Below the pieces are notes generated by a model that worked only from the letters and a program-made list of their open reading frames with translations, was not told the DNA's origin and did no database searches. Of a stretch of DNA of 64,000 nt, positions 12,557 to 13,515 are shown one piece after another (within the stretch, counting starts at the first letter, position 1; each line of letters begins with the position of its first letter). Origin of the DNA: Rozella allomycis CSF55 (Eukaryota); assembly GCA_000442015.1 (NCBI GenBank), contig KE560959.1, forward strand, positions 62,001-126,000. The letters run 5' to 3'. A program made the translations under genes and the position numbers.

Positions 12557-12570
12557 GGCTTTAGTAAGCC
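12557..12570 (-). terminator. Histone-type 3' stem-loop variant downstream of H3
   Basis: AAA-GGCTT-ACTA-AAGCC, 13 nt after the stop; 5-bp stem, 4-nt loop. Confidence 0.6.
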
Positions 12571-12583
12571 TTTCAATTACTAA

Positions 12584-13003
12584 TTAATTACTGCGTTCAC
12601 CGCGGATTCTACGAGCTAGTTGAATGTCCTTTGGCATTATCGTAACACGTTTCGCATGAATGGCGCACAAATTTGTATCCTCAAATAATCCAACTAAATA
12701 TGCTTCAGCAGCTTCTTGAAGAGCTCCAATTGCAGCGGATTGAAAGCGAAGATCGGTTTTGAAATCTTGAGCTATTTCACGAACAAGACGTTGAAATGGT
12801 AACTTGCGAATCAGCAATTCTGTCGACTTTTGATATCTGCGAATTTCACGGAGCGCTACAGTGCCTGGTCTATACCGGTGTGCTTTTTTGATACCACCTG
12901 CACCAGATGCGGGTGCAGATTTTCGAGCAGCTTTTGTGGCCAATTGTTTACGAGGGGCTTTCCCACCTGTTGACTTTCGTGCAGTTTGTTTGGTTCTTGC
13001 CAT
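12584..13003 (-). CDS. H3: Histone H3
   Basis: [20 protein letters not shown]...; intronless; AAIG motif. Confidence 0.99.
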
Positions 13004-13041
13004 TATGATATTTCGCAAATTTCATTGTTTAAATAGCCTTC

Positions 13042-13089
13042 TTCCCGCCAAATTTGGCCAATAGAAATTAGCTAATTTTGGCGCCAAAA
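13042..13089. promoter_or_regulatory. Bidirectional histone promoter with two E2F-like sites and a CCAAT box
   Basis: TTCCCGCCAAA (13042-13052), CCAAT (13058-13062), palindrome TTTTGGCGCCAAAA (13076-13089). Confidence 0.65.
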
Positions 13090-13165
13090 GAATCAAAGCT
13101 TATTGCTCAAGGGGAGATTTCATCGATATAAATAAAAGTAAAATTGAATCAGCCACAAAAGTCAA

Positions 13166-13477
13166 ATGACTGGACGTGGTAAAGGAGGAAAAGGACTAGG
13201 AAAGTCTGGTGCTAAACGCCATCGCAAAATATTAAGAGACAACATTCAGGGTATTACAAAACCCGCGATTCGCCGTCTTGCTCGTAGAGGTGGTGTAAAA
13301 CGTATTTCAGGATTAATATACGAAGAAACTCGCTCTGTCCTGCGAACTTTTCTTGAAAATGTCATCAGAGATTCAGTCACGTATACAGAGCACGCGAAAA
13401 GAAAGACTGTTACTGCCATCGACGTTGTCTACGCTCTGAAAAGACAAGGGCGTACTCTCTACGGGTTTGGTTTATAA
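13166..13477 (+). CDS. H4: Histone H4
   Basis: [11 protein letters not shown]...[27 protein letters not shown]; intronless. Confidence 0.99.
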
Positions 13478-13499
13478 AAGAAAAAAATCTCGTGTTCAA

Positions 13500-13515
13500 G
13501 GCTTCTTTAGAAGCC
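13500..13515 (+). terminator. Histone 3' stem-loop downstream of H4
   Basis: CAA-GGCTTC-TTTA-GAAGCC-A: 6-bp stem, 4-nt loop, 22 nt after the stop. Confidence 0.8.

What the first reader, a model, noticed from the sequence alone, without database searches (positions are those of the whole stretch)
12557..13515. Animal-style replication-dependent histone module (E2F-like sites plus 3' stem-loops) in a fungus-like genome
Seen: intronless divergent H3/H4 in an otherwise intron-rich window. H4 is followed by GGCTTC-TTTA-GAAGCC, the 6-bp stem/4-nt loop geometry of the SLBP-bound hairpin. H3 is followed by a shorter relative, GGCTT-ACTA-AAGCC. Known: the SLBP stem-loop pathway is typical of animals and some protists, and model Dikarya lack it. 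Inference: this lineage keeps an ancestral histone 3'-end system. AATAAA follows the H4 hairpin, so stem-loop and polyadenylation may coexist.
Basis: partly seen in the sequence, partly recalled or inferred. Interest (0 to 1): 0.85.

Follow-up and report, generated by a model that had tools for sequence, protein, structure and literature searches.

The report
Histone stem-loop in Rozella H3/H4 pair
A back-to-back histone H3/H4 gene pair of the early-diverging fungus Rozella allomycis carries a recognisable histone mRNA 3' stem-loop behind H4, a real ancestral feature that a recent preprint has already described for this species.

Summary
Intronless, divergent H3 (12584-13003, -) and H4 (13166-13477, +) are present. 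GGCTTC-TTTA-GAAGCC lies at 13500-13515, 22 nt after the H4 stop.

It is the best Rfam hit in the whole window: Histone3 RF00032, 27.7 bits, E 0.0011, below the gathering score of 34. It is also the top hit of a model I built from 43 environmental H4 stem-loops (17.4 bits, E 0.004).

The H3 hairpin GGCTT-ACTA-AAGCC (12557-12570) is real but degenerate, and neither model lists it. These two are the only GG-initiated perfect 6-bp or 5-bp stems with a 4-nt loop in 64 kb.

A window ORF is 100% identical to a protein named Rozella allomycis CSF55. A preprint of October 2026 (10.64898/2026.10.14.759114) states that this species encodes SLBP. It also reports stem-loops about 26 nt behind all core histones, LSM11, FLASH-like domains and a U7-like snRNA, with stem-loop and poly(A) signals coexisting in Cryptomycota.

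I could not test SLBP, other histone loci or mRNA ends: no genome or RNA data were available. The E2F-like sites are real, are not mentioned in the preprint's main text, and remain untested.

The parts
12584..13003 (-). Histone H3 gene, intronless, 139 aa plus stop
   Evidence: ORF list; Pfam Histone PF00125, E 7.6e-48
13166..13477 (+). Histone H4 gene, intronless, 103 aa plus stop
   Evidence: ORF list. 80 metagenome H4 loci match it at 75-94% identity
13500..13515 (+). H4 3' stem-loop GGCUUC UUUA GAAGCC (6 bp, 4-nt loop), 22 nt after the stop
   Evidence: Rfam Histone3 hit 13495-13539, 27.7 bits, E 0.0011 over the window. Own model R1: 17.4 bits, E 0.0042, top hit. Local fold -9.0 kcal/mol, z -2.95. 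The only such hairpin in the window
12557..12570 (-). H3 3' mini-hairpin GGCUU ACUA AAGCC (5 bp, 4-nt loop), 13 nt after the stop. It shares the GGCUU/AAGCC arms with the H4 stem-loop
   Evidence: Sequence. The only GG-initiated 5-bp/4-nt hairpin in the window. Not listed by Rfam or R1 at E<=10. Not part of the minimum-energy fold of the 84-nt flank
13516..13526 (+). Overlapping poly(A)-signal hexamers AUUAAA and AAUAAA directly after the H4 stem
   Evidence: Sequence; AATAAA at 13521-13526. Only 2 of 42 environmental stem-loop-bearing H4 loci have such a hexamer starting within 25 nt of the stem
13077..13088 (.). Palindromic E2F-type site TTTGGCGCCAAA in the H3-H4 spacer
13042..13052 (.). Second E2F-like site TTCCCGCCAAA (TTTGGCGG on the minus strand)
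   Evidence: 13045-13052, -; sequence
13058..13062 (+). CCAAT motif between the two E2F-like sites
   Evidence: Read from the sequence; no statistical test
13127..13134 (+). TATAAATA, 32 nt upstream of the H4 ATG. A mirror TATTTAAA on the minus strand at 13028-13035 lies upstream of the H3 ATG
   Evidence: Read from the sequence; no statistical test

Best explanation
The window comes from Rozella allomycis (Cryptomycota). The divergent H3/H4 pair has a compact 162-bp bidirectional promoter: TATA-like box, E2F-like site, CCAAT, palindromic E2F-like site, TATA box.

The H4 transcript carries, 22 nt after its stop codon, a genuine member of the eukaryote-wide histone 3' stem-loop class. [quoted passage not shown]

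Inferred mechanism: Rozella SLBP binds this hairpin and couples H4 mRNA processing, stability or translation to DNA replication.

AUUAAA and AAUAAA start at the first and sixth base after the stem, and the usual ACC 3' flank is missing. I therefore think it more likely (about 55:45) that the mature mRNA keeps the stem-loop inside a short 3' UTR and is cleaved and polyadenylated some 10-30 nt further on, rather than being cut just after the stem by a U7-type machinery.

The H3 hairpin is most likely a shortened, partly decayed copy of the same element (about 50%).

Shown here: sequence, geometry, model scores, uniqueness in the window, and species name. Taken from the preprint: SLBP, LSM11 and a U7-like RNA in this species. 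Inferred: binding, 3'-end mode and E2F control.
For: - Rfam Histone3 is the best hit of all 4227 families in the 64-kb window (27.7 bits, E 0.0011). It lies on the H4 strand and its stem starts 22 nt after the stop.
- Model R1, built from 43 environmental H4 stem-loops, ranks it first (17.4 bits, E 0.0042). The next hit has 11.4 bits, E 0.38.
- It is the only GG-initiated perfect 6-bp/4-nt hairpin in the window; 0.40 per strand are expected.
- 43 of 79 environmental H4 loci have the same kind of hairpin 20-89 nt after the stop. Among the 43, a UUUA loop occurs in 8 and a C-G top pair in 4, so the window's variant lies within natural variation.
- The local fold is -9.0 kcal/mol, z -2.95.
- Species: the 993-aa ORF matches 'ROZALSC1DRAFT_28444 [Rozella allomycis CSF55]' at 100% identity over 99% of its length.
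- Preprint main text: R. allomycis encodes SLBP, has stem-loops behind all core histones about 26 nt from the stop, and has LSM11, FLASH-like domains and a U7-like snRNA. Cryptomycota are dominated by loci with both stem-loop and poly(A) signal.
- A poly(A) hexamer this close to the stem is rare in other stem-loop-bearing H4 loci: 2 of 42.
Against: - The Rfam score is below the curated gathering score (27.7 against 34), so the default search reports nothing.
- The 3' flank is AU, not AC; 39 of 43 environmental stem-loops have AC.
- The H3 hairpin has 5 bp and an ACUA loop. Neither model lists it at E<=10. It is replaced by other pairings in the minimum-energy fold of the 84-nt flank.
- No other histone locus of this genome, no close relative, no SLBP gene and no transcript end could be examined here.
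- The genome-wide claims rest on one unreviewed preprint. Its stem-loop caller accepts any 6+4+6 hairpin with one mismatch, and its poly(A) call accepts any of 9 hexamers within 300 nt.
- AATAAA is frequent in this AT-rich DNA, 239 matches in the window.
Confidence: 0.75

Rival explanations
1. Fully canonical processing. SLBP plus a U7-type snRNP cut the H4 pre-mRNA a few bases after the stem. The mature mRNA ends in the stem-loop without poly(A), as in animals. The AAUAAA serves only as a backup signal.
For: [quoted passage not shown] A purine-rich AAAAGA lies 9-14 nt after the stem, roughly where a downstream element would sit (position recalled from the animal system).
Against: The preprint did not find LSM10 and LSM11 together in any fungus. 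The ACC(C)A cleavage context is absent. Poly(A) hexamers start at the first base after the stem. The preprint places Cryptomycota mainly in the class with both stem-loop and poly(A) signal.
Confidence: 0.3
2. Relic. The hairpins are decaying remnants of the ancestral element and are no longer used. Both mRNAs are simply cleaved and polyadenylated.
For: The Rfam score is below threshold. The 3' flank is non-canonical. The H3 copy is visibly degenerate. Poly(A) hexamers are adjacent. The preprint describes such decoupling elsewhere in fungi.
Against: The H4 stem is a perfect 6 bp with a GG base, U at loop positions 1 and 3, and an A-rich 5' flank. By recalled biochemistry these are the positions SLBP reads. 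Unconstrained sequence at 34% GC should not keep them. The preprint says the species still encodes SLBP.
Confidence: 0.15
3. Chance or generic palindrome. The hairpins are unrelated to histone mRNA metabolism. They could be a DNA-level palindromic protein site, or a shared terminator for the convergent COX15 and H3 genes.
For: Both stems are palindromic, so they fold on either strand. The H3 hairpin also lies 70 nt behind the convergent COX15 stop.
Against: The chance of a GG-initiated 6-bp/4-nt hairpin within 60 nt of the H4 stop is about 4e-4. For the 5-bp one behind H3 it is about 1e-3. The loop and flanks of the H4 copy fit the family only on the H4 sense strand.
Confidence: 0.04

Closest known systems
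Histone 3' UTR stem-loop (Rfam RF00032), bound by SLBP
   Same: Placed 22 nt after a histone stop codon. It has a 6-bp stem starting GG, a 4-nt loop with U at positions 1 and 3, and an A-rich 5' flank. It matches 11 of 16 positions of GGCTCTTTTCAGAGCC, the 16-nt stem-loop of environmental locus L019 (my count).
   Different: The top base pair is C-G, not U-A (4 of 43 environmental cases). The 3' flank is AUUAAA, not ACC(C)A. The score is 6 bits under Rfam's gathering score. Poly(A) hexamers directly abut the stem.
Loci with SLBP, stem-loop and poly(A) signal together in early-diverging fungi (preprint 10.64898/2026.10.14.759114)
   Same: Same species and same phenomenon: a stem-loop about 26 nt from the stop in R. 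allomycis, with a poly(A) signal downstream.
   Different: The preprint gives no locus-level detail in its main text, and its supplements were closed. Its caller does not require GG or loop U. This report adds that the H3 copy is degenerate, that the poly(A) hexamers touch the stem, and that the ACC flank is missing.
E2F/DP-regulated S-phase promoters
   Same: TTTGGCGCCAAA and TTTGGCGG fit the E2F consensus TTTSSCGC/TTTSGCGS. Medina et al. 2016 (PMC4862756, passages read) cite an E2F site from mammalian histone cluster promoters and show that E2F persists in basal fungi.
   Different: Whether Rozella encodes E2F/DP was not testable here, and the passages I read do not say. The same 12-mer also occurs inside the Dicer-like coding region at 43415-43426.

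Membership tests
Histone 3' stem-loop (RF00032) | Lies in the 3' UTR of a core histone gene, sense strand, tens of nt after the stop | tested here: met
   H4: stem starts 22 nt after the stop. H3: 13 nt. Environmental H4 range is 20-89 nt.
Histone 3' stem-loop (RF00032) | 6-bp stem with a 4-nt loop | tested here: met
   Met for H4. Not met for H3, which has 5 bp.
Histone 3' stem-loop (RF00032) | GG at the stem base with G-C pairs, and U at loop positions 1 and 3 (features recalled; invariant or nearly invariant in alignment A1) | tested here: met
   H4: GG and UUUA. A1 has invariant G6 G7 C20 C21 and at least 90% T at loop positions 1 and 3. H3: GG is met, but its loop ACUA lacks U at position 1.
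Histone 3' stem-loop (RF00032) | AC(C) immediately 3' of the stem | tested here: not met
   The window has AU after H4 and GC after H3. 39 of 43 environmental stem-loops have AC.
Histone 3' stem-loop (RF00032) | Reaches Rfam's gathering score (34 bits) | tested here: not met
   27.7 bits. It is still the best hit in the window, E 0.0011. H3 has no hit.
SLBP-dependent histone mRNA pathway | The genome encodes an SLBP RNA-binding domain (PF15247) | not testable with these tools
   No genome is held. The preprint text names R. allomycis among SLBP-encoding species.
SLBP-dependent histone mRNA pathway | U7 snRNA with LSM10/LSM11, and a downstream element complementary to U7 | not testable with these tools
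   No U7 hit in the window at E<=10. The preprint reports LSM11 and a U7-like RNA in this species, and found LSM10 and LSM11 together in no fungus.
SLBP-dependent histone mRNA pathway | Mature mRNA ends at or contains the stem-loop | not tested
   No RNA run holding the stretch was listed, and the run laid gave nothing from this organism.
E2F-regulated promoter | TTTSSCGC-type sites close to the start sites | tested here: met
   Two sites lie in the 162-bp spacer.
E2F-regulated promoter | E2F/DP transcription factor present in the genome | not testable with these tools
   No genome is held. The passages of PMC9457484 and PMC4862756 that I read do not state it for Rozella.

The most novel reading that the evidence does not exclude
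Rozella keeps both halves of an ancestral replication-coupled histone module at one locus. The first half is an E2F-CCAAT-E2F bidirectional core promoter. The second is an SLBP stem-loop whose 3' flank has been replaced by AUUAAA/AAUAAA.

SLBP and the cleavage/polyadenylation factor would then compete or cooperate on 27 contiguous bases. This would be a concrete molecular intermediate between U7-type cleavage and polyadenylation.

The decayed H3 copy beside it offers a natural within-locus control. The preprint's main text does not mention E2F (0 occurrences), and the sections I read give no locus-level detail such as the stem-to-hexamer abutment.
Probability: 0.3. Interest if true: 0.55.

Novelty: already known. 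Interest (0 to 1): 0.3.

Why it matters
The hairpin confirms at single-locus resolution that a fungus outside Dikarya keeps the SLBP-type histone mRNA signal. This pathway was long taught as animal-specific and lost in fungi.

That point was published as a preprint in October 2026, for this very species, so the finding corroborates rather than discovers.

What this locus adds:
- A stringent statistical confirmation. The preprint's caller is permissive.
- The H3 copy is degenerate.
- The poly(A) hexamers touch the stem and the ACC flank is gone. This gives a testable picture of how stem-loop and polyadenylation could be combined.
- E2F-type sites in the shared promoter link the ancestral E2F cell-cycle network of early fungi to histone genes.

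Tried and rejected
- Whole genome: none is held for this window.
- RNA evidence: no RNA holder was listed. The one run with the same species label, laid as contigs at 85% likeness or more, gave only short pieces on conserved coding parts. All were under 95% alike, and nothing covered the UTRs.
- Close relatives: 80 metagenome H4 loci were fetched. The best is 94% identical in protein and none shares more than 3 of the 7 positions I checked (one was mis-indexed). Conservation of this hairpin in near relatives was not testable. These loci served only as a reference set of stem-loops.
- H2A/H2B in the window: a motif scan found only the known H3 and H4 among the lines visible. The output was partly cut because one 4-residue motif was too short.
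- SLBP signature regex over the window plus the 80 loci (366,836 bases): no match.
- eIF4A search for taxonomy: the best named hits are a mix of chytrids, Mucoromycota and Zoopagomycota at 74-76% identity, so it was uninformative. The top hit P0001 proved to be a duplicated chimeric assembly.
- Dihydrofolate synthase search: the nearest named relatives are only 30-35% identical.
- Considered and dropped: a second hairpin behind H3 (12523-12544, minus strand; 9 bp including four G-U pairs, loop UAUU) as the true H3 stem-loop. Its two base pairs from GG are G-U wobbles, and no model lists it.
- AATAAA alone as evidence for polyadenylation: it is too frequent here.

Full report
**What is there**

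Window 12584-13003 (minus strand) is an uninterrupted histone H3 gene of 139 aa (Pfam Histone, E 7.6e-48). Window 13166-13477 (plus strand) is an uninterrupted H4 gene of 103 aa. The two genes are divergent, with 162 bp between their start codons.

Neighbouring genes are split by introns. COX15 matches its Pfam profile at positions 3-62 and 219-320 in separate ORF pieces. eIF4A aligns to fungal proteins in three segments. The window holds no H2A or H2B gene that a motif scan could see; that output was partly cut.

**The hairpins**

GGCTTC-TTTA-GAAGCC lies at 13500-13515, 22 nt after the H4 stop. On the H3 sense strand, GGCTT-ACTA-AAGCC lies at 12570-12557, 13 nt after the H3 stop.

An exhaustive scan of both strands found exactly one GG-initiated perfect 6-bp stem with a 4-nt loop, and exactly one such 5-bp stem. 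These are the two hairpins above. In 200 first-order Markov simulations of the window, the expected numbers per strand are 0.40 and 1.24. The chance of one starting within 60 nt after a given stop codon is then about 4e-4 and 1e-3. The two also share the arms GGCTT/AAGCC.

**Is the H4 hairpin a histone stem-loop?**

With Rfam's gathering thresholds the window returns nothing. With E-value reporting, Histone3 (RF00032) is the best hit of all 4227 families in the 64 kb. It spans 13495-13539 on the plus strand and covers the full model at 27.7 bits, against a gathering score of 34. The E-value is 0.0011 for the whole window and 2.6e-5 for the 1.5-kb region.

As a second test I fetched 80 H4 loci from metagenomes. 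In 43 of the 79 with a readable 3' flank, a GG-initiated perfect 6-bp/4-nt hairpin lies 20-89 nt after the stop. I aligned these 43 and built covariance model R1. This second test is not fully independent, because the 43 hairpins were picked with the same GG-initiated 6-bp/4-nt rule that the window's hairpin meets.

A search of the window with filters off ranks the H4 hairpin first (17.4 bits, E 0.0042). The next hit has 11.4 bits and E 0.38.

The window's variant lies within the spread of the 43. A TTTA loop occurs in 8 and a C-G top pair in 4. It differs in the 3' flank, which is AT where 39 of 43 have AC. The local fold is -9.0 kcal/mol, z -2.95.

**The H3 hairpin**

This hairpin is weaker:
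- It has 5 bp and an ACUA loop, so no U at loop position 1.
- Neither Rfam nor R1 lists it at E<=10.
- In the 84-nt flank the minimum-energy fold uses other pairings.
- It also lies 70 nt behind the stop of the convergent COX15 gene. The two stop codons are 97 bp apart.

Its position, its uniqueness in the window and the shared arms argue that it is a shortened relative of the H4 element. That remains an inference.

**Poly(A) signals**

ATTAAA (13516-13521) and AATAAA (13521-13526) begin at the first and sixth base after the H4 stem.

AATAAA is common in this 34% GC DNA: 239 matches on the two strands against about 175 expected. Its presence alone therefore proves little. The abutment is unusual, though. 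Only 2 of 42 environmental stem-loop-bearing H4 loci have AATAAA or ATTAAA starting within 25 nt of the stem. No AATAAA lies on the H3 sense strand between 11886 and 13898.

**Promoter**

The spacer holds TTTGGCGCCAAA (13077-13088, a palindrome) and TTCCCGCCAAA (13042-13052). A CCAAT motif (13058-13062) lies between them, and TATA-like boxes face each gene.

TTTSGCGS has 9 matches in the window against 3.49 expected; 1 of 100 shuffles reaches 9. Three of the 9 lie in this 162-bp spacer. The same 12-mer also occurs inside the Dicer-like coding region at 43415-43426, so sequence alone does not prove function.

**Organism**

- eIF4A finds a mix of chytrids, Mucoromycota and Zoopagomycota at 74-76% identity.
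- Dihydrofolate synthase finds its nearest named relatives at 30-35%.
- The 993-aa PAS/TmcB-type ORF (4672-7650, minus strand) is 100% identical over 99% of its length to 'hypothetical protein ROZALSC1DRAFT_28444 [Rozella allomycis CSF55]'.

The window is therefore Rozella allomycis (Cryptomycota) or a near-identical strain.

**Literature**

A full-text search for SLBP, histone stem-loop and fungi found one relevant paper: the bioRxiv preprint 10.64898/2026.10.14.759114 (Zhao, Bond and Ni Leathlobhair, 16 Oct 2026). I read its abstract, sections 5, 11, 13, part 1 of 15, 19, 27, 30 and 33, and passages around 'Rozella'. Its supplements were closed.

It states the following:
- SLBP is absent from Dikarya but present in early-diverging fungi.
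- In R. allomycis, stem-loops were found downstream of all core histones, typically about 26 nt from the stop.
- Cryptomycota are dominated by loci with both stem-loop and poly(A) signal.

Its stem-loop caller accepts any 6+4+6 hairpin with one mismatch. Its poly(A) call accepts any of nine hexamers within 300 nt. The stricter tests here are therefore a useful confirmation.

E2F does not occur in its main text. Two further searches found no other paper linking SLBP or histone stem-loops to early-diverging fungi in this library.

On E2F:
- Medina et al. 2016 (PMC4862756, passages read) show that E2F persists in basal fungi and cite an E2F site from mammalian histone promoters.
- Amses et al. 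2022 (PMC9457484, passages read) surveyed E2F, Rb, SBF and Whi5 across early fungi. The text I could read does not give the state for Rozella.

**Mechanism**

Best reading, with confidence 0.75 for the core claim: the H4 hairpin is a functional SLBP-type stem-loop.

3'-end mode, leaning about 55:45: the stem-loop stays inside a short 3' UTR, and cleavage and polyadenylation follow the abutting AUUAAA/AAUAAA. The alternative is animal-type cleavage just after the stem by a U7-like particle.

Rivals are a relic hairpin (0.15) and a chance or generic palindrome (0.04).

**What could not be done**

- No genome is held for the window. SLBP, U7, LSM10/11, E2F/DP and the other histone loci are untested here.
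- No RNA data for this organism were available.
- No close relative was found among the metagenome loci.

**Verdict**

The phenomenon has already been described for this species in a month-old preprint. The novelty class is 'already known' and the interest is modest (0.3). The residual interest lies in the stem-to-poly(A)-signal abutment, the decayed H3 copy and the E2F-type promoter.

Noticed in passing
window 42018-45936 (-): Dicer-like gene. The helicase and Dicer dimerisation domains (43312-45936) and two RNase III domains (42021-43352) lie in two ORFs. They overlap around a single N at 43319, so the break may be an assembly ambiguity rather than a real split.
   Followed up: partly
window 43415-43426: A second copy of the palindromic E2F-type 12-mer TTTGGCGCCAAA lies inside the Dicer-like coding region. 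An exact 12-mer is not expected twice in 64 kb by composition (my rough estimate is about 0.002 occurrences).
   Followed up: partly
window 3656-7650 (-): A large protein with TmcB-type TPR repeats and several PAS domains, 1532 aa in the NCBI model. The database search returned only its own record at E<=1e-10 among proteins of 546-1738 aa.
   Followed up: partly
window 52029-53628 (-): Two adjacent paralogous ORFs (242 and 312 aa). The longer starts with a hydrophobic, signal-peptide-like stretch (my reading). Both carry repeated 'TTGDQGIS'-like units and near-identical acidic C-terminal halves. The 312-aa ORF, the only one scanned, has no Pfam family.
   Followed up: no
window 46044-46826 (+): A 260-aa ORF rich in Q, Y, N and A, with a signal-peptide-like start (my reading) and 'ANANANAYANP' repeats. 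No Pfam family.
   Followed up: no
window 20548-20723 (-): Two adjacent sub-threshold C/D-box snoRNA-like Rfam hits: snoZ163 at 23.5 bits and snoR60 at 22.5 bits. They could be a small snoRNA cluster.
   Followed up: no
window 12484-12586: COX15 (+) and H3 (-) are convergent, with only 97 bp between their stop codons. Their 3' UTRs must be very short or overlap, and the H3 hairpin lies in the shared stretch.
   Followed up: partly
window 719, 1657, 2136, 8170, 10369, 32711, 33029, 41790, 43319, 46750, 52708, 61116: Twelve isolated single N bases are scattered through the window, several of them inside ORFs.
   Followed up: no
L050, L057, L063, L008 (metagenome H4 loci): Environmental H4 stem-loops with a C-G rather than U-A top base pair, as in the window. 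This shows the variant recurs in nature. The organisms are unknown.
   Followed up: no
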